In this document: positions 16,408 to 62,462 of the stretch, piece by piece
How the letters are laid out: every line of letters starts with the position of its first letter
How positions within the stretch are numbered: the first letter of the stretch is position 1
Assembly (NCBI GenBank): GCA_045599105.1
Contig: JAZRVL010000014.1
Location: 10,807-74,806, forward strand
DNA from: Kiritimatiellia bacterium
GTDB taxonomy: Bacteria > Verrucomicrobiota > Kiritimatiellia > RFP12 > UBA1067
DNA: 64,000 bases
Direction of reading: 5' to 3'
Translations under genes and position numbers: made by a program
Notes under the pieces: model-generated
What the model was told of the DNA's origin: nothing
The model's database searches: none
The model's input: the letters and a program-made list of their open reading frames with translations, nothing else

Positions 16408-17537
16408 TTCACTTTAATCGGCCCTATATGACTGGCAATGAGACGGAGTACATCCGTCAAGCAGTCATAAACGGCAAGATTTCGGGAAATGGCGAGTTTA
16501 CCAAAAAATGCCAAGCGTTTTTCGAATCACGCTATGGTTTTAAACGCTGTTTGCTTACGACTTCTTGCACGGATGCTTTGGAGATGGCGGCGATTCTTAC
16601 GGGAGTAGGTCCAGGCGATGAAGTCATTGTGCCATCCTACACCTTTGTTTCAACGGCACTTGCGTTTGTGCGTACGGGGGCGAAGATAGTTTTTGCCGAT
16701 AGTCGCCAAGACGAGCCCAACATTGATGCGAGTAAATTGGAGTCGCTCATAACTCCAGCTACCAAGGTGATCGTGCCTGTGCATTATGCGGGCTGTGCGT
16801 GTGATATGGATGCAATCATGGCAATCGCCAAACGTCATTCGCTTATGGTGGTTGAGGATGCCGCACAAGCAATTGATTCTTTTTATATTGGTAAAGATGG
16901 AGTTAAGCGCGCATTGGGATCAATTGGTGATTTGGGATGCTTTTCGTTTCATGAAACCAAAAATATCATTTCAGGCGAAGGCGGAATGCTTGCAATTAAT
17001 GATGAGCGGCTTATTCGGAGAGCGGAGATTATTTGGGAGAAAGGGACGAATCGCGCAGAGTTTTTTCGCGGGGAAGTCAATAAATATGGTTGGGTGGATA
17101 CGGGATCTTCGTTTTTGCCAACGGAGATTGTCTCAGCATTTCTTTGGGCGCAGTTAGAACATATTGATGAAATTCAGGTGGAGCGTAAACGGCTTTGGAA
17201 TGTCTATTTTGAGACAATGAAAAAGTTTTCCGATCGTGTGAGTTTGCCCAAGATTCCTGAATATGCGACCAATAATGCGCACATGTTCTATCTTTTATTC
17301 CAGGATCTCGTGCAGCGAACAGATTTTATTGCGAAAATGAAGGCAAAGGATATTTTGACGGTGTTTCATTATTTGCCGCTACATTCTTCGGAGTTTTATC
17401 GTTCGCGTCATGATGGAAGAGCGTTGCCCAATTGTGATCGCTATGCCGATACCTTGGTGAGACTGCCGCTTTATTGCGGGCTTAAGCCCGATCAAGATAA
17501 AGTGATTTCGGCAATTGAGGAGTCGCTCTCATCGTGA
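16404..17537 (+). CDS. DegT/DnrJ/EryC1/StrS-family PLP-dependent sugar aminotransferase (WecE/ArnB-like)
   Basis: MIHFNRPYMTGNETEYIRQAV..., PLP-lysine region SFHETKNI, 377 aa. Confidence 0.8.
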   Translation: MIHFNRPYMTGNETEYIRQAVINGKISGNGEFTKKCQAFFESRYGFKRCLLTTSCTDALEMAAILTGVGPGDEVIVPSYTFVSTALAFVRTGAKIVFADSRQDEPNIDASKLESLITPATKVIVPVHYAGCACDMDAIMAIAKRHSLMVVEDAAQAIDSFYIGKDGVKRALGSIGDLGCFSFHETKNIISGEGGMLAINDERLIRRAEIIWEKGTNRAEFFRGEVNKYGWVDTGSSFLPTEIVSAFLWAQLEHIDEIQVERKRLWNVYFETMKKFSDRVSLPKIPEYATNNAHMFYLLFQDLVQRTDFIAKMKAKDILTVFHYLPLHSSEFYRSRHDGRALPNCDRYADTLVRLPLYCGLKPDQDKVISAIEESLSS

Positions 17538-19474
17538 ATGATGTTGCATTTAGTTGCGACGATAATGGCGCGAAATTTCTTCGCGTAGCGGTATATTCAC
17601 TTTTGGCGCATTATCAAGGCAAGGATAGATTGCGCATTAATGTCTTTGAGGGATATGGTGGGCATTCTGAAGATAATAAGCGCTTGTTGGCAGAAGTTGT
17701 AGGGCGCTTTCCGTTTGCAGAAGTTAGGTATCATGACGTTGAAGCTACGCTTAAGCCCTATATTGATTTAATTGCGCAGCGGGATGGATCAAGGTGGAAT
17801 ATTTTTACTTGGACGCCAGTTTTCACGCCTACGATTATTGAGGATGCGACAAAAAATGTCATTCACTTTGACATTGATATGCTATTTAACGCGGACATCT
17901 CGCCACTTTTTGAGTTGGATTTGGGTGATAAACTGATTGCGACGAGCTATGAATATCATAAGTGCACTGGCAAGGTGGAGAGCGCAATTTGGGACAAGGG
18001 GATTTTGCCGGGTTCGATTGAGCGTTATTTCAATACTGGAGTGTTAGTTTTTAATTATGCCAAGTGCCGAGAGGAGCGCACGTGGGAAAAGATTGTTGAA
18101 TGGTATCGTCAGCATTATCAGATTGCAGATCGAATTGAGCAGGATGCATGGAATGCGCTTTATTTCGATCGCAATTTTGCTTTGCCAATCGAGTGGAATT
18201 TTCATGACCGAAACATTAAGGGCTATGCGAAGTGGTCTTTGTCCAATAAGTATTGGCTCGGTAACTCGCCCAAGGATTGTTTGATGGCGTCGCTCAATCC
18301 GAAGATACTTCACTTTTGGGGGCCGAAAAAGCCGTGGAAACCTTCTCATCGCCCATATCGCAAGCTCTATCATGCAGCAATGCGTGCGGTAGGACTTAAG
18401 CCGCCACATGAGCAGTTACTTGCGCCTTGGTACAATTTGGTAAATGCCTTTAACTTGCGTCGCATCCGCCATCGGCTAAAAGTGCGTCGTTCGATTGCAT
18501 GGTCATATAAGTTCAAACGTATCAAGCGTACGCTTCGTGCGCCCTTGGAGTGGCTTGGAATTGCCTTGGGCGTTGCAATCTTTAGTTCGCTTTCTCATCG
18601 TGTGCTATTTAAAGTTTGTGATTTTCTTTCCTATTTGATGTACAAGTGCGATCGTCGTGGAAGGAGAAGGGCTTTAGAGACCTTGAGAATTGTCTTTAAT
18701 CGTTGCAGAGGGCTTGAGGGTAATCAAGTTGAGTTTGATCCAGATGTGGAGCCGTATAATCCAACTCGGGCGGAGGATATAATCATTCGTCGGTCTTATC
18801 GCAACATGGCACGGACGATAGGGCATATCTTTTGGACTTGTCGAAAGGCAAAAGAGCGTGCGCAAGAAGTTGGAGAGATGAGCGAAATGTGTAAAGAGTT
18901 TCTCAAAGCCAATAAGCCCGCAGTCACAGTTTCGGGCCATCTGGGATGTTGGGAGATTCTTTCTCAATTGGCATTTCTTGAAGGTCATACGATGATGTCG
19001 GTGGCCAAGAAAATTGGCAATAGAGGAATGACTAAGTTTTTGATGAAAGCGCGGATGTCAATCGGACAAGAAATTATTCCTGTTGAAGGCGCAATGAAGA
19101 CACTACTTAAAGGCATTGAAAACGGGAAATCCTTGGGGCTACTGGTCGACCAAAGCGTGGAGCCGATACACGGTGGGATTTGGGTGCGCTTTTTTGGTAA
19201 GCCAATTTCCGTCTCAGCGGCGCCTGCGTTTTTTGCTGCCAAGGCGAAAGTTCCTATTGCGGTTGCGTGGTCGCGTCCGCTAAAAAATGGACATTATCGT
19301 TGTGAGTTGGTGGATGTGATCACTCCAAGTGAAGCGCGCGATATTAGGGGTACGACCCAGCGCTGTGCGCATGATTTTGAGCGGATTATTCGGCGACATC
19401 CATCGTGCTGGGTGATGAATTACAATTTTTACAGCAACATACCGACAGAAAAGGATTTAGCCACATTGCCATGA
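17534..19474 (+). CDS. Fusion protein: N-terminal GT8-family glycosyltransferase + C-terminal LpxL/HtrB-like lipid A acyltransferase domain
   Basis: N-terminal GT8-like region with DxD-type FDIDMLF; C-terminal VSGHLGCWE...GLLVDQS...GGIWVRFFGKP resembles LpxL/LpxM motifs. Confidence 0.55.
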   Translation: MNDVAFSCDDNGAKFLRVAVYSLLAHYQGKDRLRINVFEGYGGHSEDNKRLLAEVVGRFPFAEVRYHDVEATLKPYIDLIAQRDGSRWNIFTWTPVFTPTIIEDATKNVIHFDIDMLFNADISPLFELDLGDKLIATSYEYHKCTGKVESAIWDKGILPGSIERYFNTGVLVFNYAKCREERTWEKIVEWYRQHYQIADRIEQDAWNALYFDRNFALPIEWNFHDRNIKGYAKWSLSNKYWLGNSPKDCLMASLNPKILHFWGPKKPWKPSHRPYRKLYHAAMRAVGLKPPHEQLLAPWYNLVNAFNLRRIRHRLKVRRSIAWSYKFKRIKRTLRAPLEWLGIALGVAIFSSLSHRVLFKVCDFLSYLMYKCDRRGRRRALETLRIVFNRCRGLEGNQVEFDPDVEPYNPTRAEDIIIRRSYRNMARTIGHIFWTCRKAKERAQEVGEMSEMCKEFLKANKPAVTVSGHLGCWEILSQLAFLEGHTMMSVAKKIGNRGMTKFLMKARMSIGQEIIPVEGAMKTLLKGIENGKSLGLLVDQSVEPIHGGIWVRFFGKPISVSAAPAFFAAKAKVPIAVAWSRPLKNGHYRCELVDVITPSEARDIRGTTQRCAHDFERIIRRHPSCWVMNYNFYSNIPTEKDLATLP

Positions 19475-21078: not shown

Positions 21079-21137
21079 GCCAAAAGGAAGGTCAAGTCCC
21101 CGCTTGCGAAGAAGTGTGCCAAGGGTGTAGAGTAAAC

Positions 21138-21290
21138 GTTATATAACGGTTGTGTGCGCGTTATATAACAGATGGTTGAGTATTATATAACGGTTGGTTT
21201 TGCGTTATATTACGGTTTGTCGGACGGTATATGACGCATTGACAAATGCTATATAATGCAATAGAATCTTTCATATAACAGTTTAGCCGA
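21138..21290. repeat. Tandem array of 7 degenerate ~22-bp direct repeats, each starting with a 10-bp palindrome (consensus GTTATATAAC)
   Basis: Copies start at 21138, 21160, 21183, 21204, 21226, 21248 and 21269; spacing 21-23 bp; unit consensus GTTATATAACGGTTGGTTnnGC, decaying toward the 3' end. Confidence 0.75.
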
Positions 21291-21681
21291 TACCAGGAGG
21301 GGTAATGATCTACGCAAGCACGATTGGATATTCCACGACGCTGCGAAATCGCGACAAATGGCAAGTTTGTGAGGGTTCATCCCGAGGCGCCCGACTGTTT
21401 TGGCGGGGACACACTCCAAAAAGTCAATAAAATCAGGCCTTTGGCGAAAATAGTAGATGGAAGGGGAATTTTGAGACAAGGAGAGGTAGGACAAGGGATG
21501 TTCGGGGACACGCCCGCGAGAGGTGTGATTTTATTGGAGAGGACGAGAGATGGATGCTGAAAAGGGTGGTGCAGATCGGGGAAGGGAAGATATTTGGAGG
21601 GTACGGGCGTGAGAGGTGTTGCCTTTTAGTGGTTAGGTGTGGTAGAATTGAAGCAATTGAAGTCAATATTAAGGAAGCACA

Positions 21682-27101: not shown

Positions 27102-28706
27102 ATGGCAGGCGAGTATCAGTTTAGTTTAATTGATGTTACTAAGCAACAAGGCACCAAGACTATTCTTAAGGATGTTAATCTTTCGTTTTTCTATGGTGCG
27201 CATATTGGAGTAATTGGCGCGAATGGTGCGGGCAAGTCGTCGCTTTTAAAGATTTTGGCTGGGCTTGACAGCGAGCTTATGGGGACAGTGCAAGTTGCGA
27301 AGGGGACGAAGGTAGGTTATTTACCACAAGAGCCAATATTAGATGACGAAAAGACCGTCTTGGAGACAGTGATGGAGGGCGTCAAAGAGGCGCAGGCGAT
27401 GGTGGAGCGCTATGAAGATCTTTGCTGTAATCTTGACGATCCCAAAGCGGCAGCGGAAATGGGAAAGCTTCAGGCGATTATTGATAAAAATGATTATTGG
27501 AATCTTGAGAATTTAGTTGAACGCAGGATGGCAGATTTAGGATGCCCAGATGGCTCAAAAAAGGTGGGTGTGCTTTCGGGCGGTGAACGTCGTCGTGTTG
27601 CCATTGCTCGACTACTACTTTCCAATCCAGATGTGTTACTATTGGACGAGCCCACCAACCATCTTGACGCAGAGACCACTTTTCGCTTAGAGGCGTATTT
27701 GAAGGAGTTTAAGGGTACGCTCATCGTGGTTACGCATGATCGCTACTTCCTCAGTGATGTTACGGATTGGATTTTGGAGCTTGATCACGGCATTTGTTAT
27801 CCTTACAAGGGCAACTATGAAGAGTGGCTGAAACAAAAAGAAGCCATGCTCCAGCGCGAAGCCAAAGTGGAGAAGTCGCGCCAGAAAATGCTCGAGAACG
27901 AACTTAAGTGGATTCAGACCAATCCTTCAGGTCGTCATGCCAAGGCGAAAGCGCGTGTGGAGCGTTATGAAGAGTTGCAAAAGCAAGAAGTTAATACGCG
28001 CGAGGATGATTTGGTTATTCGCATTCCGCCAGGTCCACGGCTTGGCAATCTCGTGGTGAAGGCCGAGCACGTGAAGATGGGCTTTGATGGACAAGTTCTT
28101 TATGATGATCTTAACTTTGACTTGCCACGGGGTGGAATTGTAGGAGTTATTGGTGCGAATGGTGCAGGCAAAACAACGCTCTTTAAGCTTATCACAGGTC
28201 AATTAAAGCCGCTTTCGGGGACTTTTACTGTGGGTGAGACGGTAAAGCTTTCTTATGTTGATCAAACGCGAAGTGAGCTCAAAGGTGAAGAGACGGTCTA
28301 TGAGGCGATTACTGGTGGTGGTGAATTTGTTAAACTTGCGGGAACGACGATGATGAATGGACGCGCTTATTGCTCGCGCTTTAACTTCCGTGGACCTGAG
28401 CAGCAAAAGAAAGTTGGCGTTCTTTCGGGTGGAGAGCGCAATCGCGTTCACCTCGCAAAGCTACTAACCTCAGGTGGCAATCTGCTACTTTTAGACGAAC
28501 CAACCAATGATCTCGATGTTGCGACTTTGCGTTCACTCGAGGAAGGTTTGCAGGAGTTCGGCGGATGTGTGATGGTGGTTTCGCACGATCGATGGTTCTT
28601 GGATCGTATTGCAACTCATATTCTTGCGTTTGAAGGTAAGGGCAAAACAACTTGGTTTGAGGGATCTTACTCAGAATACCACGAAATGCTTGATCGGCGT
28701 AAGTGA
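27102..28706 (+). CDS. ettA: ABC-F family ATPase, EttA-like (energy-dependent translational throttle)
   Basis: Two tandem ABC cassettes with LSGGERRRV and LSGGERNRV signatures; 534 aa; no TM domains. Confidence 0.8.
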   Translation: MAGEYQFSLIDVTKQQGTKTILKDVNLSFFYGAHIGVIGANGAGKSSLLKILAGLDSELMGTVQVAKGTKVGYLPQEPILDDEKTVLETVMEGVKEAQAMVERYEDLCCNLDDPKAAAEMGKLQAIIDKNDYWNLENLVERRMADLGCPDGSKKVGVLSGGERRRVAIARLLLSNPDVLLLDEPTNHLDAETTFRLEAYLKEFKGTLIVVTHDRYFLSDVTDWILELDHGICYPYKGNYEEWLKQKEAMLQREAKVEKSRQKMLENELKWIQTNPSGRHAKAKARVERYEELQKQEVNTREDDLVIRIPPGPRLGNLVVKAEHVKMGFDGQVLYDDLNFDLPRGGIVGVIGANGAGKTTLFKLITGQLKPLSGTFTVGETVKLSYVDQTRSELKGEETVYEAITGGGEFVKLAGTTMMNGRAYCSRFNFRGPEQQKKVGVLSGGERNRVHLAKLLTSGGNLLLLDEPTNDLDVATLRSLEEGLQEFGGCVMVVSHDRWFLDRIATHILAFEGKGKTTWFEGSYSEYHEMLDRRK

Positions 28707-33412: not shown

Positions 33413-34423
33413 ATGAAGACGTATAATGTAGGTTTAGTGGGCGTAGGCGCTGTCGGCACCGAAATGATTCGGGTGCTAAAAGAGCGCGCCTTTCCGTGCG
33501 GCAAGGTTCAAGTATTCGCTTCGCATGAACGCGATGAGGAGATTTTGGGCGAAAAGTATCATGTCCTTAAGGCAGATGAAAATAGCTTTAAGGGCTTGGA
33601 TATAGTTTTATTTGCGGGCAAGACTGATGTTGCGCTCGCACTTAAGGACGCAGTCGTCAAGGCGGGAGCCAAGATGATTGATAATTCGCGTGCGTTTCGC
33701 CAAGACCCCAAGGTGCCGCTCGTCGTCCCGCAAGTGAATGCTGAGGACCTTGACTGGAATGAAGGCGTCATTGCCAACCCTAATTGCACAACGGCAATTA
33801 TGCTGGAGGCGGTGGCGCCTTTACATAAGGCGAAGGGGCTTAAGCGGCTTATTGCCTCGACCTATCAAGCAGCTTCAGGCGCAGGTGCGCCAGGGCTCAT
33901 GGAGCTTGAGGAGCAAATCCACGATTATGCGTCCAATAAACCTTTGACGGTCAAAGCGTTTCAGCATCAGCTGATGTATAACCTCATTCCGCACATCGAT
34001 AAGTTCGATGAGACGAATTGGTATACTCTGGAGGAGCTTAAGATGCGCAATGAAGCGCGCAAGATGCTTCACTTGCCAGAGTTGATGCTTTCTTGTACTT
34101 GCGTGCGAGTGCCGATTGCCCGTGCCCATTCTGAATCGCTCAATATGGAGTTTGAGCGCGACATTACGCCCGAAGAGGCGCGTGAAATATTGAAAGGCGC
34201 GGTTGGAGTCAAAGTGGTTGACGATCCACTCAATGGTGGATATCCAATGCCACTTGATGCGACGGCCAAGTATGATGTTCTGGCAGGCCGTATTCGTCAG
34301 GATATTTCGCGCAATGACAAGAAGGGACTTGAGATGTTTATCTCGGGAGACCAGCTTTTGCGAGGGGCTGCGCTTAATGCAGTCGAAATTGCCGAAGAGC
34401 TTATTAAGCGGAAACTCGTCTAA
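33413..34423 (+). CDS. asd: Aspartate-semialdehyde dehydrogenase
   Basis: NAD motif VGLVGVGAVG; active-site NPNCTT; 336 aa; TGATATAAT 10 nt upstream of the ATG. Confidence 0.9.
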   Translation: MKTYNVGLVGVGAVGTEMIRVLKERAFPCGKVQVFASHERDEEILGEKYHVLKADENSFKGLDIVLFAGKTDVALALKDAVVKAGAKMIDNSRAFRQDPKVPLVVPQVNAEDLDWNEGVIANPNCTTAIMLEAVAPLHKAKGLKRLIASTYQAASGAGAPGLMELEEQIHDYASNKPLTVKAFQHQLMYNLIPHIDKFDETNWYTLEELKMRNEARKMLHLPELMLSCTCVRVPIARAHSESLNMEFERDITPEEAREILKGAVGVKVVDDPLNGGYPMPLDATAKYDVLAGRIRQDISRNDKKGLEMFISGDQLLRGAALNAVEIAEELIKRKLV

Positions 34424-36927
34424 TGTATTTACGCGAGCTCAATATTTCCGGCTTCAAGAGCTTTGCAGATAAAACGCGTCTCACGTTTGATCCTGGGCTT
34501 ATTGCAATCGTAGGACCTAATGGTTGCGGCAAATCCAATGTTTCGGATGCGATTCGTTGGGTATTGGGTGAGCAGCGTCCAACGGCGCTTCGTTGCTCGA
34601 AGCTTGCGGATGTCGTTTTTAACGGGACAGATACGCGGAAACCTTTGGGGCTTGCAGAAGTTTCAATCACCTTTGATGATTGTGAGAAAGAGCTGGGGAC
34701 GGATTATCACGAAGTTACGATAACGCGTCGTGTTTATCGGGATGGTTCGGGCGAGTATTTCATCAACAAGCAAGCATGCCGACTCAAAGATGTTCAGCGC
34801 CTGTTTATGAATACGGGAATTGGTACTTCCTCCTATTCAGTTATGGCGCAGGGACAAATTGATGCGATTCTTTCGTCCAAGCCAGAGGATCGTCGAGGCA
34901 TTTTCGAGGAAGCGGCGGGCATCATGAAGTTCAAGGCCGACCGCAAGGAGGCATTACGCAAGATCGAGCAGACCGAGCAAAACCTTTTGCGCGAAGCGGA
35001 TGTCTTACGGGAAATGAAGCGTCAAATTGGCTCTTTGCAGCGTCAAGTCGGCAAGGCCAAGAAGTACAAGGAGCTTCGCGATCAATTGCGAGGGCTTGAT
35101 ATTTATGTCTCTAAGCAAAAGATTCACAATTTTGACAAAGAGCTGGAGCAAAATGCGATAAATCACCGAGAGGTCGAAAAGGCGATTCAAGAAGCGCAAG
35201 AAGTTGTCTTAGCTGCGGAGCAAGAAGCGCAGGAGAAGCATGCGGCAATTCACGAGCTCGAGGAACGCTTGCAGACGTTGGCTTCGGAGCAGGCGGCAGC
35301 CGAAGGCGCTTACGCGCGTGCCCGCGAGGTTATTGGCGTTAATGCGACGCGAGTTGAAGAGTACCGTTCGTTTGTCCAGCGCGATTCGACGGAGATGGCG
35401 GCTTCACGGCGCACGCTTGAGGAAGTGCGTATGCAAGCGGAGTCGCTCGCGCAAAAGACGAAGCTTTTAACCGACTCGCTTGTAGCTGCCAAAGAGGCGC
35501 TAAGCAGAAGCGAGAGCGTATTTGCCGAATCTCAAGCGAAGATTGACGCTAAACGCGAAGAAGTTGCGGTAAAGCGCAATGAAGTCGCCAATACCACGCT
35601 TACAGGACGACTCGTCAAAGATAGTGAAGTTGAGCGCGATGGCAAGATTGAGATTTGGAAAGCACTCACGCAAGTTACTACTGCGGATCGGCGCGAGATT
35701 TTGATGGCGGAGATTAGCTCGGTTGAAGGAGAATTGCACGAGCTTGAAGCATCTTCAGTTACCCTTTCGCAAGAGCTCACCGAGCGGAGAATTGCCACGA
35801 GCCAAATGGAGCAAGAGCTTTCCTTCGTCGGTCAGCAAAATGCCATTGCGAGTGAGCGACGCGAGGAGTTGGAGCGTGCGATTGAGGGACGCGAGGCGAT
35901 GATTAAGGACTACGAGGAGTCGATTGCCAAGTTGACCGAGGAGTCGGGCGAGCTAATGACGCAACTTGATGAGCTAAGGGCAAAGGCGTCAAGTTACATA
36001 GATCTCATCAACGATGAGCGGGGTAAGCGCGCATTGATGTTGGAGCGGATTACTGCAGTTGATCGGCAAGTGGCGCAGAAGCGTGCGGCATTGGATCAAG
36101 CGAGAGATTTTCGTGGTAAGCTCGAAGTGCAGGCGACGGAAGTGACTATGCGTCGGCAGAATATTTACGAGCACTTGCAAGATGAGTATGGGCTTTTTGC
36201 GGATGCGGTGATGCGCGAAGCAGATCCAGAGTGGAAAAACGGCGTAGTTCCACCAATGGAGGAGCTTGAGGGAACGGTCGGGAGATTGCAAGCGGAGATT
36301 GCGGAGTTGGGGCCAGTTAATATGGTTGCGATTGAAGAGTGCCAAGAGCTCGAGGAGCGTTACGCCAAGGAGAAGGCGCAGGAGGAGGATTTGCTCGCTG
36401 CCAAGGCGCAACTTTTGGAGCTGATTAACAATCTCAACTCTACGTCGGGCGATATGTTCAAAACGACGTTTGAGCAGGCGAATAAGAACTTTCAGACGAT
36501 GTTCACTCAGCTCTTTGGTGGAGGTGAGGCGCGACTTATTCTCTTGGAGAATGAAGAGGATCCTTTGGAGTGCGGTATTGATATTATTGCTCGTCCTCCA
36601 GGCAAGCGTCCACAGTCGGTGACATTGCTGTCGGGTGGTGAACGTACGATGACAGCAGTAGCGTTGCTCTTTTCAATTTTCATGATTAAGCCAGCTCCAT
36701 TCTGCATGCTGGATGAGCTTGATGCGGCGTTGGATGATGCGAATATTGGACGTTTTGTAGAGCGGCTTAAGGAGTTTCTCGCCCAATCACAATTCTTGAT
36801 TATTACTCACAATCAGCATACGATTGCGGGTAGTGATCTCGTCTACGGGGTATCACAGCAAGAAAAGGGCGTATCGAGGGTAATCTCGATGAAGCTTTCC
36901 GATATCGGAGTTAAGGCGAAGAAGTGA
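34423..36927 (+). CDS. smc: SMC-family chromosome-segregation ATPase, unusually short (834 aa)
   Basis: N-terminus MYLRELNISGFKSFADKTRLTFDPGLIAIVGPNGCGKSN and C-terminus LSGGERTMTAVALLFSIF...CMLDELDAALD are canonical SMC head motifs; long coiled-coil middle; no obvious G-rich hinge. Confidence 0.7.
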   Translation: MYLRELNISGFKSFADKTRLTFDPGLIAIVGPNGCGKSNVSDAIRWVLGEQRPTALRCSKLADVVFNGTDTRKPLGLAEVSITFDDCEKELGTDYHEVTITRRVYRDGSGEYFINKQACRLKDVQRLFMNTGIGTSSYSVMAQGQIDAILSSKPEDRRGIFEEAAGIMKFKADRKEALRKIEQTEQNLLREADVLREMKRQIGSLQRQVGKAKKYKELRDQLRGLDIYVSKQKIHNFDKELEQNAINHREVEKAIQEAQEVVLAAEQEAQEKHAAIHELEERLQTLASEQAAAEGAYARAREVIGVNATRVEEYRSFVQRDSTEMAASRRTLEEVRMQAESLAQKTKLLTDSLVAAKEALSRSESVFAESQAKIDAKREEVAVKRNEVANTTLTGRLVKDSEVERDGKIEIWKALTQVTTADRREILMAEISSVEGELHELEASSVTLSQELTERRIATSQMEQELSFVGQQNAIASERREELERAIEGREAMIKDYEESIAKLTEESGELMTQLDELRAKASSYIDLINDERGKRALMLERITAVDRQVAQKRAALDQARDFRGKLEVQATEVTMRRQNIYEHLQDEYGLFADAVMREADPEWKNGVVPPMEELEGTVGRLQAEIAELGPVNMVAIEECQELEERYAKEKAQEEDLLAAKAQLLELINNLNSTSGDMFKTTFEQANKNFQTMFTQLFGGGEARLILLENEEDPLECGIDIIARPPGKRPQSVTLLSGGERTMTAVALLFSIFMIKPAPFCMLDELDAALDDANIGRFVERLKEFLAQSQFLIITHNQHTIAGSDLVYGVSQQEKGVSRVISMKLSDIGVKAKK

Positions 36928-36931
36928 TTTT

Positions 36932-37008
36932 GGGATCGTAGCTCAACTGGACAGAGCGCGAGTTTCCTAAACTTGAGGTTGGGAGTTCGATTCTCCCCGG
37001 TCCCACCA
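36932..37008 (+). tRNA. tRNA-Arg (anticodon CCT), CCA encoded
   Basis: Acceptor GGGATCG/CGGTCCC; anticodon stem CGAGT/ACTTG with loop TTCCTAA; T-arm GGGAG-TTCGATT-CTCCC; 3' ACCA. Confidence 0.8.
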
Positions 37009-37249
37009 AATCTTTCAGCCCGAGGCCCCCTACTGACTTTTGCTTACTCCTTCCAGAACGCTGATGTAAGCCAACGGGAAGGGCCGAAACGATAGATAAC
37101 CTGGTGGAGCGAGACGACTAAGGTCACCGAGCTATCGGTTCAACTTGCCCAAGATGGCGACCAAAGGCGCGTTCTTTGATGGCAAAAGGTGACGCTCTGA
37201 ATACTTAAAGGCGGGTATTGGCATAAGTCAACCTGGGTTTTGTGTTCGC

Positions 37250-37410
37250 CATAGTTATGGCGATGGTGTCGGCATAGCTATGGCGATGGTATCGACATAG
37301 CTATGGCAACTAAACGACACAGCTATGTCGAATGATGTGGTATAGCTATGAGTGGACTGTCGGTATAGCTATGGCGATTGAGTCGACATAGCTATGTCGG
37401 CTACATTTGT
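37250..37410. repeat. Tandem array of 7 x 23-bp direct repeats, each starting with the 10-bp palindrome CATAGCTATG (one copy CATAGTTATG, others variants)
   Basis: Copies start at 37250, 37273, 37296, 37318, 37341, 37364 and 37387; unit consensus CATAGCTATGGCGATGGTrTCGr. Confidence 0.8.
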
Positions 37411-37687
37411 CAGGTTAGATAATAGAATGTGTCACATTAACGAACAGGATAATGCGCTTTTATATACGTTGACGCCCCACTTGGGGCGGATGTCAAAGTC
37501 GGTTGGGATTGGGCGATACTCGGCTTAGATGAAGAGTACGGGCAGCTTTGGTATCGTATATATAGAACGCACGCGGGGAGACACCCTCCTTTTCGCCAAC
37601 ATCCTTATAAACCAAAAGTCAGCAGGGGGTAAGCCGAAAGTCCGTAGGGGTGTCGGGCTGTCCCCGAATAGCGCGAATAGCGGTGCA

Positions 37688-48761: not shown

Positions 48762-49730
48762 TTAGTCGAGTTTGACGCCCATCATCGCAATAATGCGATC
48801 AAGGTCATCGTTGTCAAGAAAATCAATCTCAACCATCCCCTTGGTATGCTTGCCATTGGCATGAGTAACGCCACTCGTCACCCTCACCGCACAACCAAGT
48901 TGCTTTTTCATTTTATCAGCAAGATTCTTGATATAACCATCTGGCAAGTCGGGAGTGCCACGACGCACCTCTGCAACTGGCTCATGTAATTTTGCAACCT
49001 TGCGCTCCAATGCACGAACCGTAAGCTGATCATTCACACAATCACGCGCCAACAAAATCCGATCTTTTTCTCCGTCAATCGTAAGCAAAACCTTGGCGTG
49101 ACCAACCGAAAGTAGCGACTGCGACACCAACGCCTTAACTTCATCTGGGAGTTCCAACAAACGCGTAGAGTTGGCAACTGTTGCCCGACCCTTACCCACA
49201 CGCTCAGCTACTTGCTGCTGCGTAAGGTTAAAAGTATCTTGCAATGTCTTATAAGAAATCGCCTCTTCAATTGGATTTAAATCTTCGCGTTGAATATTCT
49301 CCGTCGTCGTCATTGCCGCCGCCGTCAAATCATCCGCCTCTACCAAGGTAACCTTAATCTTCTTCCATCCAGCAAGCTGCGCCGCTCGCAAACGACGCTC
49401 GCCTGAAATAAGCTCATACTTGCCATTAGAATTTTTGCGCACCGTAGGTGGCTGAACCAATCCAGTGTTTTTAAGTGACTCAGCAAGCTCCGTGAGCTCA
49501 GACTCTTTAAAATCTCTACGTGGCTGATAAGGTGAGCGTTCAATATCCATTATTGGAAGCTCTACCGCTTGCGATCCTGTAACTGCAACTACAGGAGACA
49601 CCCCCAAAAGTCCGCCAACTCCACCACCGAAGTTTACACTTCGCCCAAGCCCATGCTTTTTCTTGTCAGCAGCAACGGGAGTTTTTCCTACTCCAGTTGC
49701 CTTTTTAAGAAATGGATTACCTTTTACCAT
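48762..49730 (-). CDS. parB: ParB/Spo0J-family chromosome partitioning protein (no adjacent parA)
   Basis: N-terminal GLGRSVNFGGG; ParB box GERRLRAA; HTH region. Confidence 0.7.
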   Translation of the reverse strand: MVKGNPFLKKATGVGKTPVAADKKKHGLGRSVNFGGGVGGLLGVSPVVAVTGSQAVELPIMDIERSPYQPRRDFKESELTELAESLKNTGLVQPPTVRKNSNGKYELISGERRLRAAQLAGWKKIKVTLVEADDLTAAAMTTTENIQREDLNPIEEAISYKTLQDTFNLTQQQVAERVGKGRATVANSTRLLELPDEVKALVSQSLLSVGHAKVLLTIDGEKDRILLARDCVNDQLTVRALERKVAKLHEPVAEVRRGTPDLPDGYIKNLADKMKKQLGCAVRVTSGVTHANGKHTKGMVEIDFLDNDDLDRIIAMMGVKLD

Positions 49731-62135: not shown

Positions 62136-62385
62136 ATAATTGCCCTTCGTCCTGCAAGAGGATATTTATCGAACCAAGATAGTTATCTGCTTGGAGGTTA
62201 GGCACACTTTTAAGTATGTATATTACCATATTCTACGTCTTCATTGTGATAAAAATTGTTCGCTTATTTTGCTCGCGTATTTTTTACTTCTTAATTTTTA
62301 AGAGTTTTGCTACAATCCTTGGGGTCTTGAGCCGAAATCCTGGGGACACCTACGGGAAATGCTGGGGGTCTCGGGATGGAAGATT

Positions 62386-62462
62386 TGGTGGAGACTGAGG
62401 GACTCGAACCCCCGACCCGCTGCGTGTAAAGCAGCTGCTCTAACCAACTGAGCTAAGTCTCC
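62386..62462 (-). tRNA. tRNA-Val (anticodon TAC), CCA encoded
   Basis: Reverse complement gives GGAGACT-TA-GCTC..GAGC-A-GCTGC-TTTACAC-GCAGC-GGGTC-GGGGG-TTCGAGT-CCCTC-AGTCTCC-ACCA. Confidence 0.8.

What the first reader, a model, noticed from the sequence alone, without database searches (positions are those of the whole stretch)
21138..21290. Iteron-like array: seven ~22-bp tandem repeats, each built on the perfect palindrome GTTATATAAC
Copies begin at 21138, 21160, 21183, 21204, 21226, 21248 and 21269. The spacing is 21-23 bp, about two helical turns, so every palindrome lies on the same DNA face. This geometry suits cooperative binding of a dimeric DNA-binding protein (regulator, initiator or partition-type protein) or a nucleoprotein filament. 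The units degrade gradually toward the 3' end (GTTATATAAC, then ATTATATAAC, GTTATATTAC, GGTATATGAC, GCTATATAAT, TCATATAAC). That pattern suggests an old duplication array kept under selection only for the core. The array lies in a 600-bp intergenic region upstream of a membrane metallophosphoesterase gene. No known consensus matches: DnaA boxes are TTATCCACA, and IHF, Fur and CRP consensuses also differ. A second array with the same architecture but a different palindrome lies 16 kb away at 37250-37410. Two arrays with identical design suggest a family of paralogous binding proteins.
Basis: seen in the sequence. Interest (0 to 1): 0.7.

Follow-up and report, generated by a model that had tools for sequence, protein, structure and literature searches.

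The report
Seven-site palindrome arrays around promoters
Two rows of seven evenly spaced short palindromes in the chromosome of an uncultured gut Kiritimatiellia bacterium are real and look like multi-site docking platforms for two different DNA-binding proteins; one row wraps the strongest promoter in the region, but the binding proteins and the function are still unknown.

Summary
Array 1 has seven copies of GTTATATRAC in strict 22-bp register (21138-21279). Array 2 has seven copies of CATAGCTATG at 23 bp (37250-37396). Shuffled sequence never gives more than two in a row, and the cores are far better conserved than the spacers.

Four things are new. (1) Array 1 runs through the best sigma-70-type promoter in the 64 kb: five sites upstream, one in the spacer, one at the start site. 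(2) Array 1, the promoter and about 165 nt downstream form a 331-bp module (21108-21438). One other metagenome contig carries it at 90% identity between unalignable flanks, with seven sites, the same register and no indels. The small ORF inside it is not coding. (3) Array 2 is absent from the same tRNA-Arg junction in all relatives examined. It lies in the intergenic region that holds the GC-skew switch (a terminus-like convergence point). (4) A nearby orphan ParB is predicted to read canonical parS, not these arrays.

Best reading: in-phase operator arrays that a dimeric regulator coats cooperatively. Array 1 would work as a repressor-type super-operator. This is a new variant of a known design (parC/ParR, phage operators, iterons). 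The binders, the transcripts and any role at the terminus are untested.

The parts
21108..21438 (+). Conserved module 1: a short leader, array 1, the promoter and about 165 nt of non-coding sequence
   Evidence: Local alignment with metagenome contig L181 (positions 365-696): 90.4% identity over 332 columns. Both flanks align no better than shuffled sequence.
21134..21287 (+). Array 1: seven 22-bp units with cores GTTATATRAC starting at 21138, 21160, 21182, 21204, 21226, 21248 and 21270
   Evidence: L181 has the same seven sites in the same register, with 18 substitutions and no indel in 154 bp.
21239..21267 (+). Sigma-70-type promoter TTGACA-17-TAGAAT embedded in array 1. Site 6 lies in the spacer and site 7 at the predicted start (about 21274).
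   Evidence: 11 of 12 matches. It is the best match on either strand of the whole window. In L181 the -10 and the spacing are kept, and the -35 is TTGGCA.
21274..21438 (+). Conserved, probably non-coding, transcribed segment of module 1. Its core 21305-21413 is 96% identical in L181. It contains a small hairpin, GGGGACACACTCC, at 21405-21417.
   Evidence: The 41-codon ORF (21305-21430) has 4 of 4 non-synonymous changes, a frameshift and a lost Shine-Dalgarno sequence in L181. It does not fold better than shuffles (z = +0.69).
37245..37404 (+). Array 2: seven 23-bp units (one 22-bp step) with cores CATAGCTATG at 37250-37396. The best units are the 16-bp palindrome CGACATAGCTATGTCG.
37421..37441 (+). 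AATAGAAT followed by GTGTCACATTAAC: a -10-like element and start region resembling that of module 1. The -35 is poor (GCTACA). The centre of the last palindrome lies 31.5 bp upstream of TAGAAT, the same distance as for site 5 of array 1.
   Evidence: Read directly; local similarity; the promoter scan did not call it.
37573..37596 (+). Small hairpin GGGGAGACACCCTCC followed by TTTT, about 150 nt after the -10-like element. It may mark the 3' end of a short transcript. A related hairpin lies 141 nt after the -10 in module 1.
   Evidence: Inferred; the terminator scan did not call it.
36932..37008 (+). tRNA-Arg(CCT), immediately left of the array-2 region. In relatives this tRNA is a rearrangement breakpoint.
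37009..37687 (.). The 679-bp intergenic region holding array 2. The cumulative G-C maximum (37580) and the switch from + strand genes to - strand genes both fall here.

Best explanation
Each array is a row of seven binding sites for a sequence-specific, dimeric DNA-binding protein. The two arrays would have different binders: GTTATATRAC for array 1 and (C/T)ATAGCTATG for array 2. The sites are spaced about two helical turns apart, so bound dimers can contact each other and coat or wrap about 155-160 bp cooperatively.

In array 1 the row runs straight through a near-consensus promoter. Full occupancy would therefore block RNA polymerase, making a repressor-type 'super-operator'. The promoter drives a short conserved RNA of about 165 nt that is probably untranslated. 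That RNA could be a stand-alone small RNA or a leader of the downstream metallophosphoesterase/FadL genes.

Array 2 has the same layout but stops about 20 bp upstream of a weaker promoter-like element. There the protein might act as an activator or simply as a bound platform.

Shown:
- The arrays, their register, and core-over-spacer conservation.
- The promoter match.
- The conserved module with seven sites in an unchanged register.
- That the small ORF is non-coding.

Inferred:
- Protein binding and cooperativity.
- Repression.
- That the promoters fire and what they transcribe.
For: - Non-randomness and palindromy.
- Cores are conserved and spacers are not. This argues for selection on a 10-bp dyad, the signature of a dimeric binder.
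- Mutated copies do not keep hairpin complementarity in the outer positions. This argues for protein reading over RNA or DNA hairpins.
- Array 1 overlaps the best promoter in the window, with sites in the spacer and at +1. These are classic repressor positions.
- In the only orthologue (L181), all seven sites, the 22-bp register, the -10 element and the spacing are kept, with no indel in the array. Sites 6 and 7 are closer to consensus there.
- The module has sharp borders against unalignable flanks.
- The same palindrome at the same spacing acts as an evident operator in phage contigs. There it overlaps TTGACA...TATAAT between a 48-aa ribbon-helix-helix gene and a TnpB-like gene.
- Known systems use the same design. 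R1 parC has ten iterons flanking the par promoter and is bound cooperatively by ParR dimers (PMC2241845). Phage 186 CI operators are two turns apart on a wheel of seven dimers (PMC3675496).
Against: - No candidate binding protein was found. The window has no small RHH or HTH gene next to either array.
- No isolated copy of either palindrome sits in another promoter region of the window, as an autoregulated regulator gene would predict.
- Between the window and L181, cores and spacers have diverged about equally (8/70 against 10/84). The between-genome comparison therefore does not by itself show selection on the cores.
- Array 2 has no convincing -35 and the promoter scan did not call it.
- Array 2 is absent from all relatives examined at the same junction.
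- No transcription data are available.
- The conserved downstream segment shows no RNA structure signal, so what the promoter is for remains open.
Confidence: 0.5

Rival explanations
1. The arrays are relics or satellites of a mobile replicon: iteron-type origin, centromere (parC/sopC-like) or packaging-site arrays. They were left in, or moved into, the chromosome and are recognised by a Rep, partition or terminase protein encoded elsewhere.
For: - Seven units of about 22 bp is the classic iteron layout (own knowledge: the R6K gamma origin has seven 22-bp iterons).
- Module 1 is a discrete 331-bp unit between unalignable flanks in two genomes. In L181 it is more AT-rich than the left flank (GC 0.46 against 0.57).
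- Array 2 lies beside a tRNA, a common integration site, and is bracketed by inverted copies of a short motif.
- In metagenomes the CATAGCTATG pair occurs in a plasmid-like element with an RHH protein and a Mob_Pre relaxase.
- In phages the GTTATATAAC array occurs just upstream of terminase-like genes.
Against: - No rep, par, integrase, relaxase or phage gene lies anywhere in the 64 kb. The context is core housekeeping chromosome.
- No DnaA boxes lie near either array.
- Neither the module's core motif nor the array-2 motif pair occurs in viral contigs.
- Iterons are normally asymmetric direct repeats, not perfect palindromes.
- The AT-rich stretch next to array 1 is a near-perfect promoter rather than a generic unwinding element.
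Confidence: 0.17
2. Array 2 (and possibly array 1) belongs to the replication-terminus region. It would be a bound nucleoprotein block that acts as a fork barrier, a terminus-organising site or an accessory to chromosome-dimer resolution.
For: - The cumulative G-C maximum (37580) and the convergence of gene orientation fall inside the 679-bp region holding array 2.
- Polar oligomers flip strand there.
- In relative L005 a 3 x 23-bp array also coincides with the cumulative-skew maximum of the fetched locus.
- SMC lies immediately upstream and a ParB lies 11 kb away.
Against: - Array 1 has the same design but lies 16 kb inside the left arm with no skew change.
- The two arrays need two different proteins.
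- No dif-like site and no Tus- or RTP-like gene was found.
- Perfect palindromes give no polarity, which fork traps need.
- The switch point must be intergenic, and this is simply the longest intergenic region, so the coincidence is weak.
- In L005 only 1.6 kb lies beyond the array.
- Arrays in other relatives show no link to skew.
Confidence: 0.1
3. The arrays are functionless minisatellites produced by replication slippage in long, tolerant intergenic regions, and the palindromic unit is accidental.
For: - Tandem arrays of 21-23 bp or 42 bp with unrelated units occur sporadically in intergenic DNA of related genomes (L058, L050, L005, L064).
- They are also very common in metagenomes.
- Array 2 is missing in relatives.
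- The spacers of neighbouring units in array 2 are still similar, which suggests fairly recent duplication.
Against: - Two independent arrays both built on perfect 10-bp palindromes is roughly a one-in-a-million coincidence (about 4^-5 for each, an estimate).
- Cores are conserved and spacers are not.
- Seven copies, the exact register and zero indels are kept across 10% sequence divergence in L181. Slippage-prone repeats would vary.
- The phase is kept through a functional-looking promoter.
Confidence: 0.13
4. The arrays act as RNA or single-stranded-DNA hairpin arrays (REP/BIME-like 3'-end stabilisers or terminators of the upstream genes), or as part of a structured non-coding RNA.
For: - Both arrays lie downstream of + strand genes (a sulfatase-like gene and tRNA-Arg).
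- Each unit can form a short hairpin.
- The array-2 region is bracketed by long-range inverted repeats.
Against: - Neither palindrome is dispersed elsewhere in the window, unlike REPs.
- Variant copies break pairing and do not compensate.
- No Rfam family matches, even at permissive thresholds.
- Folding energies do not differ from shuffles.
Confidence: 0.05

Closest known systems
Plasmid R1 parC / ParR (type II partition centromere-operator)
   Same: A DNA segment of about 159 bp made of tandem short repeats that flank the promoter. It is bound cooperatively by dimers and serves as an operator (PMC2241845). Array 1 likewise surrounds a promoter and spans about 154 bp.
   Different: - parC repeats are 11-bp direct repeats in two blocks of five, and the promoter core is left free. 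Here there are seven 22-bp units with palindromic cores that also cover the promoter.
- parC drives parM-parR. Here no protein gene follows.
- parC is on a plasmid. Here the context is core chromosome.
Coliphage 186 CI repressor wheel and its pR operators
   Same: Palindromic operators spaced two DNA turns apart over a promoter. The binding species is a wheel of seven dimers that wraps about 145 bp (PMC3675496; bioRxiv 10.1101/2021.10.29.466366). Seven sites of 22-23 bp give 154-161 bp, enough to fill such a wheel.
   Different: - Phage 186 has only three strong sites at pR, plus distal FL and FR sites.
- Its repressor gene is adjacent and the context is a prophage.
- No CI-like gene and no prophage is present here. 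The wheel idea is only an analogy.
Iteron arrays of theta-replicating plasmids (R6K gamma origin, RK2 oriV, P1, F)
   Same: Tandem repeats of about 17-22 bp at a period of about 22 bp, five to seven copies, next to an AT-rich segment (own knowledge; iteron origins are discussed in general in PMC4081077).
   Different: - Iterons are asymmetric and bind Rep monomers.
- A rep gene and DnaA boxes accompany them. None is present here.
- The AT-rich segment here is a near-consensus promoter.
F-plasmid sopC / SopB and other ParB-parS centromeres
   Same: 16-bp palindromes, arranged in sopC as a tandem array, bound by a ParB-family HTH protein (own knowledge; sopC in PMC3597684, listed). The best unit of array 2 is a perfect 16-bp palindrome, and a ParB gene lies 11 kb away.
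   Different: - The window's ParB has the R173/G201 pattern that Jalal et al. found to be specific for canonical parS.
- The sopC period is 43 bp.
- There is no ParA gene.
Phage RHH-repressor operators with the same palindrome (IMG/VR contigs L089, L091, L092, L097)
   Same: GTTATATAAC sites 22-23 bp apart overlapping a TTGACA...TATAAT promoter.
   Different: - Only two or three sites are present.
- The sites lie between a 48-aa RHH gene and a TnpB-like gene.
- There is no sequence homology beyond the 10-mer, and no such RHH gene in the window.

Membership tests
Iteron-type plasmid replication origin | Tandem repeats of about 17-22 bp at a period of about 22 bp | tested here: met
   Periods of 22 and 23 bp, seven copies each.
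Iteron-type plasmid replication origin | Adjacent gene for the iteron-binding initiator (Rep) | tested here: not met
   Pfam and NCBIfam annotation of essentially all ORFs in the 64 kb found no Rep protein.
Iteron-type plasmid replication origin | DnaA boxes and an AT-rich unwinding element beside the iterons | tested here: not met
   No DnaA box (up to 1 mismatch) lies within 1 kb of either array, and boxes are not enriched in the window. The AT-rich stretch at 21239-21290 is a near-consensus promoter.
Iteron-type plasmid replication origin | Location on a plasmid, phage or integrated element | tested here: not met
   The context is core chromosome (purC, recR, holA, serA, serC, asd, SMC, def, dut, rpoBC-sized genes) with no mobile-element genes.
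Partition centromere-operator (parC/ParR, parH/ParG, omega sites) | Tandem repeats flanking or overlapping the promoter | tested here: met
   Array 1 has five sites upstream, one in the spacer and one at +1 of TTGACA-17-TAGAAT.
Partition centromere-operator (parC/ParR, parH/ParG, omega sites) | The promoter drives an operon encoding the centromere-binding protein and an NTPase | tested here: not met
   Downstream there is only a 41-codon ORF, which is non-coding by its substitution pattern, frameshift and lost Shine-Dalgarno sequence. The next gene is a metallophosphoesterase with its own promoter.
ParB-parS / sopC-type centromere | 14-16-bp palindromes | tested here: met
   Array 2 contains CGACATAGCTATGTCG. 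The extended array-1 unit is CGTTATATAACG.
ParB-parS / sopC-type centromere | A cognate ParB whose specificity residues fit the site | tested here: not met
   The ParB at 48762-49730 aligns to Caulobacter ParB with R173, S179, E184 and G201. This is the RxxG class, specific for canonical parS (PMC7383237). The arrays do not resemble parS.
ParB-parS / sopC-type centromere | A partner ParA ATPase | tested here: not met
   The neighbours of parB are a lipoprotein-like gene and an M28 peptidase.
Phage repressor operator array (186 CI-type wheel) | Dyad-symmetric operators two helical turns apart over a promoter | tested here: met
   The comparator is described.
Phage repressor operator array (186 CI-type wheel) | Adjacent repressor gene in a prophage context | tested here: not met
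   No HTH or RHH repressor gene lies next to either array and there are no phage genes.
Phage repressor operator array (186 CI-type wheel) | The binder forms a heptamer of dimers | not testable with these tools
   The binder is unknown.
REP/BIME or MITE-type dispersed repeats | Many dispersed copies of the same unit in the genome | tested here: not met
   With up to 1 mismatch, neither palindrome occurs outside its array in the 64 kb. With 2 mismatches there are only scattered hits, almost all inside coding sequence. The rest of the genome could not be searched.
Known structured RNA families (Rfam 15) | Match to a covariance model | tested here: not met
   Only the three tRNAs reach gathering score. 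Permissive searches of both regions give only chance-level hits.
Replication terminator sites (Tus-Ter, RTP-Ter) | Location at or around the GC-skew switch | tested here: inconclusive
   Array 2 lies in the intergenic region that holds the switch (cumulative maximum at 37580). Array 1 is 16 kb away with no skew change.
Replication terminator sites (Tus-Ter, RTP-Ter) | Asymmetric site and a terminator-protein gene | tested here: not met
   The sites are palindromic, and no Tus- or RTP-like protein is encoded in the window.
CRISPR array | Repeats of 24-48 bp separated by unique spacers of similar length, usually near cas genes | tested here: not met
   The period is only 22-23 bp, the 'spacers' are 12-13 bp and related to one another, and there are no cas genes.

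The most novel reading that the evidence does not exclude
The two arrays are chromosomal docking sites for a so far unknown pair of paralogous ring- or filament-forming DNA-binding proteins. Each ring would hold seven dimers, a 186-CI-like wheel or a small bacterial 'nucleosome'. The complexes would wrap about 155 bp and switch off very strong promoters of short non-coding RNAs. The whole cassette (array, promoter and RNA) would be a portable regulatory module, with one copy recruited to the replication-terminus junction.
Probability: 0.1. Interest if true: 0.7.

Novelty: new variant of a known kind. Interest (0 to 1): 0.45.

Why it matters
If the reading is right, these are unusually large operators: seven in-phase sites covering a whole promoter. 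They sit in a phylum (Kiritimatiellota, PVC group) where nothing is known about transcriptional control, and no regulator gene lies next to them. They would give a clean, short DNA bait of about 155 bp to fish out new DNA-binding proteins from an uncultured gut or rumen lineage. They would also be an example of a small, portable cassette of operator array, promoter and non-coding RNA. The position of array 2 at the GC-skew switch beside a rearrangement-prone tRNA is also a lead for how chromosome termini are marked in this group. If the arrays turn out to be relics or minisatellites, the finding is ordinary.

Tried and rejected
- **Structured sRNA or CsrB-like sponge downstream of array 1.** The GGA-rich stretch at 21439-21610 lies outside the conserved module and is absent from L181. 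Folds are no better than shuffles and Rfam is empty.
- **Small protein gene under the array-1 promoter.** Rejected: 4 of 4 changes are non-synonymous, there is a frameshift, and the Shine-Dalgarno sequence is lost in L181. The large-library search gave only P0242 plus spurious repeat proteins.
- **Orthologous arrays in relatives.** The 80 genome loci around the ABC-F gene lose synteny too fast to cover either site. The SMC-tRNA-Arg junctions of L082-L088 and L182 lack array 2.
- **Homology of either locus to any fetched DNA (1.85 Mb).** Only L181 matched.
- **Shared system behind the 81 metagenome hits for the array-2 motif pair.** The set is heterogeneous: near-perfect tandem repeats, a plasmid-like group, and a coding-sequence motif in an HTH_36 protein. 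The pattern would catch any 22-24-bp tandem repeat that contains the 10-mer.
- **ParB as the binder.** Its specificity residues are of the parS type.
- **dif site near the skew switch.** None found with the known consensus sequences.
- **DnaA boxes.** None near the arrays.
- **unk630 next to array 2 as a DNA-binding protein.** It looks like a secreted glycoside hydrolase (own reading of the sequence).
- **Same-species contigs by exact protein look-up** (MPE, dut, ybaB). None on record.
- **Phage RHH homologue in the window.** None.
- **Terminal inverted repeats or target-site duplications at the module borders.** Nothing convincing, by inspection.
Full report
**The observation.** Tandem Repeats Finder reports a 22-bp array at 21137-21217 and a 23-bp array at 37246-37307. 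Read in a fixed register, array 1 has seven 10-mers at 21138, 21160, 21182, 21204, 21226, 21248 and 21270. They are GTTATATAAC twice, then ATTATATAAC, GTTATATTAC, GGTATATGAC, GCTATATAAT and TTCATATAAC. Array 2 has seven copies of CATAGCTATG, each with at most one mismatch, at 37250-37396 (none of 100 shuffles reaches seven). I also scanned the whole window for any 10-bp near-palindrome repeated every 20-24 bp, without fixing the motif. Only these two arrays came out, and 100 shuffles never gave a chain longer than two. In both arrays the palindromic core is much better conserved among the copies than the spacer (8/70 against 38/84 mismatches, p = 3.6e-6; 4/70 against 33/84, p = 4.9e-7).

Two details need correcting. 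First, the sites share a DNA face only if the helical repeat is about 11 bp per turn. At 10.5 bp per turn they spiral by 34 or 69 degrees per step. Second, the 'degraded' 3' copies of array 1 are not decay products (see the promoter section below).

**Organism and context.** The window is core chromosome of an uncultured gut or rumen Kiritimatiellia (PVC group). A scan of species-representative genomes with the ABC-F protein at 27102-28706 returned 80 loci, nearly all labelled Kiritimatiellia, Lentisphaerae or Verrucomicrobia MAGs from ruminants, horses and humans. The genes are housekeeping: hisS, purC, ybaB, recR, holA, serC, serA, asd, SMC, def, dut, pfk, infC and LPS genes. There are no integrase, transposase, Rep, relaxase or phage genes. 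The two array-bearing regions are the two longest intergenic regions in the window, at 603 and 679 bp.

**Array 1 wraps a promoter.** The consensus scan finds TTGACA-17-TAGAAT at 21239-21267 (11 of 12). A scan of both strands of the whole window shows this is the single best sigma-70-type match in 64 kb. Related genomes show the same kind of promoter in front of tyrS, rpmE and dxr (read directly), so this promoter type is in use in the clade. Sites 1-5 of the array lie upstream. Site 6 fills the spacer and site 7 covers the predicted start, all in unbroken 22-bp phase. These are the positions where repressors act.

**Array 1 belongs to a conserved module.** A search with the 41-codon ORF that follows the promoter found one relative, P0242, on a 777-bp ENA contig (L181). 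The DNA alignment matches window 21108-21438 at 90.4% identity (32 differences in 332 columns). Neither flank aligns better than shuffled sequence, and L181's left flank is the end of an ORF that matches nothing in the window, with GC 0.57 against 0.46 for the module.

Inside the module all seven sites are present in the same register. There are 18 substitutions and no indel in the 154-bp array. The -10 element and the 17-bp spacing are kept. Sites 6 and 7 read GTTATATAAG and CTTATATAAC, closer to the consensus than in the window, so they are true members of the array.

The small ORF is not a gene. All four substitutions in it are non-synonymous, a one-base insertion shifts its end, and its Shine-Dalgarno sequence AGGAGG becomes GGGGGC.

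The stretch 21305-21413 is 96% identical, more than the array itself, yet it folds no better than shuffles on either strand (z = +0.69 and +0.04). Two sequences give no usable covariation.

No further copy was found:
- in 1.85 Mb of fetched DNA;
- in viral contigs;
- in the 1.84-billion-protein library, where the other three hits are unrelated repeat proteins.

One caution applies. Between the two genomes, cores and spacers have diverged about equally (8/70 against 10/84). The evidence for selection on the cores therefore comes from the within-array comparison and from the preserved number and register.

**Array 2.** Its units are built on (C/T)ATAGCTATG. The best ones are the perfect 16-bp palindrome CGACATAGCTATGTCG. 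The array ends about 20 bp before AATAGAAT-GTGTCACATTAAC, which resembles the -10 and start region of module 1 (AATAGAAT-CTTTCATATAAC). The centre of the last palindrome is 31.5 bp from TAGAAT, the same distance as for site 5 of array 1. However, the -35 is poor (GCTACA) and the scan does not call a promoter.

About 150 nt downstream lies a small hairpin, GGGGAGACACCCTCC, followed by TTTT. A similar hairpin lies 141 nt after the -10 in module 1. Otherwise the transcribed parts of the two loci cannot be aligned. The two loci are therefore alike in design but not demonstrably homologous.

SMC-tRNA-Arg is conserved in every relative examined, including the two nearest (SMC 92% identical; L082, L182). 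In those relatives the tRNA is followed directly by dxr, rpmE or a GH31 gene on the same strand, with no long spacer and no array. Array 2 is thus lineage-specific, and the tRNA is a rearrangement breakpoint.

**The skew switch.** GC skew is about +0.2 from position 1 to about 37.5 kb and about -0.2 beyond. The cumulative G-C maximum is at 37580, inside the array-2 intergenic region. Nearly all genes on the left are on the + strand and nearly all on the right on the - strand. Polar oligomers flip at the same point (GAAGAAG 9:1 against 1:8). This is the signature of a replication terminus, or at least of two converging replichore-like arms.

I treat the coincidence with array 2 as a lead, not as evidence, for four reasons:
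- The switch point must be intergenic, and this is the longest intergenic region.
- Array 1 has the same design but lies 16 kb inside the left arm.
- No dif-like site was found.
- Of the arrays in relatives, only L005's coincides with a skew maximum, and only 1.6 kb lies beyond it.

**Candidate binders.** None could be identified.
- The window encodes an orphan ParB at 48762-49730, with ParB_N, HTH_ParB and ParB_C domains and the GERRxRA motif, but no ParA. Aligned to Caulobacter ParB, its specificity positions read R173, S179, E184 and G201. This is the RxxG class that Jalal et al. found to be specific for canonical parS (PMC7383237). It is therefore not expected to read either array. No canonical parS occurs in the window.
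- YbaB and an HTH_17-EIIA protein are present but are not linked to the arrays.
- Neither palindrome occurs singly in any other intergenic region of the window.

**Analogues elsewhere.** The pair GTTATATAAC-N11-13-GTTATATAAC occurs in 11 viral contigs. In four of them the sites overlap a TTGACA...TATAAT promoter between a 48-aa ribbon-helix-helix gene and a TnpB-like gene, a textbook operator. In six others, four sites at 22-23 bp lie beside a (TA)n tract just upstream of terminase-like genes.

The array-2 pair is absent from viral contigs but gave 81 metagenome loci. These are heterogeneous:
- many near-perfect tandem repeats with up to 26 copies;
- a plasmid-like element with a CopG/NikA-type protein and a Mob_Pre relaxase;
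- eight cases inside the coding sequence of an HTH_36 protein.

My pattern would catch any 22-24-bp tandem repeat whose unit contains the 10-mer, so the hit count is not evidence for one shared system. None of these loci is homologous to the window. Related Kiritimatiellia genomes also carry sporadic intergenic arrays with other units, such as L058 (6 x 22 bp) and L050 (6 x 42 bp around GTCAAAATTTTGAC).

**Interpretation.** The best-supported reading is that each array is a row of in-phase sites for a dimeric, sequence-specific DNA-binding protein that coats or wraps about 155 bp cooperatively. Array 1 would act as a repressor-type super-operator on a very strong promoter that drives a short, conserved and probably untranslated RNA. 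That RNA could be a stand-alone small RNA or a leader of the downstream metallophosphoesterase/FadL genes.

The closest known designs are:
- R1 parC/ParR: ten repeats flanking the par promoter, 159 bp (PMC2241845);
- phage 186 CI: operators two turns apart on a wheel of seven dimers that wraps about 145 bp (PMC3675496);
- plasmid iterons.

Membership in each of these families fails on a defining feature. There is no par operon, no adjacent repressor or prophage, and no rep gene or DnaA boxes. So this works like those systems but cannot be filed under any of them.

The rivals are a relic or satellite of a mobile replicon, a terminus-linked element, a neutral minisatellite, and hairpin arrays. 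None is excluded. Each is weakened by specific results listed under the rival explanations.

**Verdict.** This is a real and statistically solid pair of arrays. It is a new variant of a known design in an unstudied phylum, with a conserved 331-bp cassette and a suggestive position at the skew switch. It has no identified binder, no expression data and only one orthologue. Interest is moderate.

Noticed in passing
window 1-64000; switch at about 37580: There is a strong GC-skew switch (+0.2 to -0.2) with convergent gene orientation and a flip of polar oligomers. This is a replication-terminus-like junction inside the window. No dif-like site was found with the known consensus sequences.
   Followed up: partly
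window 48762-49730 (-): An orphan, full-length ParB (CTP motif present, parS-type specificity residues R173/G201) has no ParA next to it, and there is no canonical parS within 64 kb. It lies only about 11 kb from the terminus-like switch, whereas chromosomal parB is normally near the origin.
   Followed up: partly
window 37009-37045, 37610-37660 (inverted), 62364-62389 (-), 21376-21402: A short dispersed motif (CCAAATCTTYCAKCCCGAGRCCCC...ACTGACTTTTG) directly follows tRNA-Arg and tRNA-Val and recurs inside module 1. Inverted copies of it bracket the whole array-2 region. Its function is unknown; it could be a tRNA trailer or terminator element, or the end of a small mobile element.
   Followed up: partly
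window 21439-21610: A purine-rich, GGA-rich stretch of about 170 nt with an internal 26-nt direct repeat (21501-21526 and 21594-21619) and a terminator-like hairpin (21509-21527). It lies between module 1 and the metallophosphoesterase promoter, has no counterpart in L181, and was not explained.
   Followed up: partly
window 34423-36927 (+) and relatives P0121-P0240: The SMC protein of this clade is only 834 aa, against a model length of about 1180. It matches the SMC equivalog model in two separate stretches, so the coiled coil appears strongly shortened. The length is conserved in more than 100 relatives.
   Followed up: no
window 36932-37008; L082-L088, L182: SMC-tRNA-Arg(CCT) is conserved across the clade, but the gene after the tRNA differs in each lineage (dxr, rpmE, GH31, or the array-2 region). 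The tRNA is a hotspot for rearrangement.
   Followed up: yes
L058 8106-8240; L050 114-376; L005 19953-20013; L064 3634-3713: Related Kiritimatiellia genomes carry their own intergenic tandem arrays (6 x 22 bp, 6 x 42 bp around GTCAAAATTTTGAC, 3 x 23 bp, 4 x 21 bp) with unrelated units. The L050 array is flanked by inverted AATTAGG-type low-complexity repeats.
   Followed up: partly
L089, L091, L092, L097 (for example L091 5825-5868): In these phage contigs, GTTATATAAC operators overlap a divergent promoter between a 48-aa ribbon-helix-helix gene and a TnpB-like (OrfB_IS605-type) gene. This is a possible RHH-controlled TnpB locus.
   Followed up: partly
L090, L094-L096, L098, L099 (for example L090 2845-2922): Four GTTATATAAC-type sites at 22-23 bp lie next to a long (TA)n tract, immediately upstream of small and large terminase-like genes. 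This may be a packaging (pac/cos) site or an origin.
   Followed up: no
L114, L121, L132, L145 (two copies), L149, L154, L157, L161, L166, L177: A recurrent plasmid-like element from metagenomes has AACCATAG-CTATGGTT repeats at fixed spacings (35, 23, 48, 23 bp) upstream of small ORFs. It also carries a CopG/NikA-like protein and a Mob_Pre relaxase.
   Followed up: partly
L103, L107, L127, L155, L160, L167, L170, L176: In eight metagenome contigs the CATAGCTATG pair (24-bp spacing) lies inside the coding sequence of a conserved protein of about 270-340 aa. The one member scanned (L107) has an HTH_36 domain. This is a coding-sequence motif, not an array.
   Followed up: no
window 17534-19474 (+): A single ORF fuses a family-8 glycosyltransferase domain with a lipid-A acyltransferase (LpxL-like) domain.
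   Followed up: no
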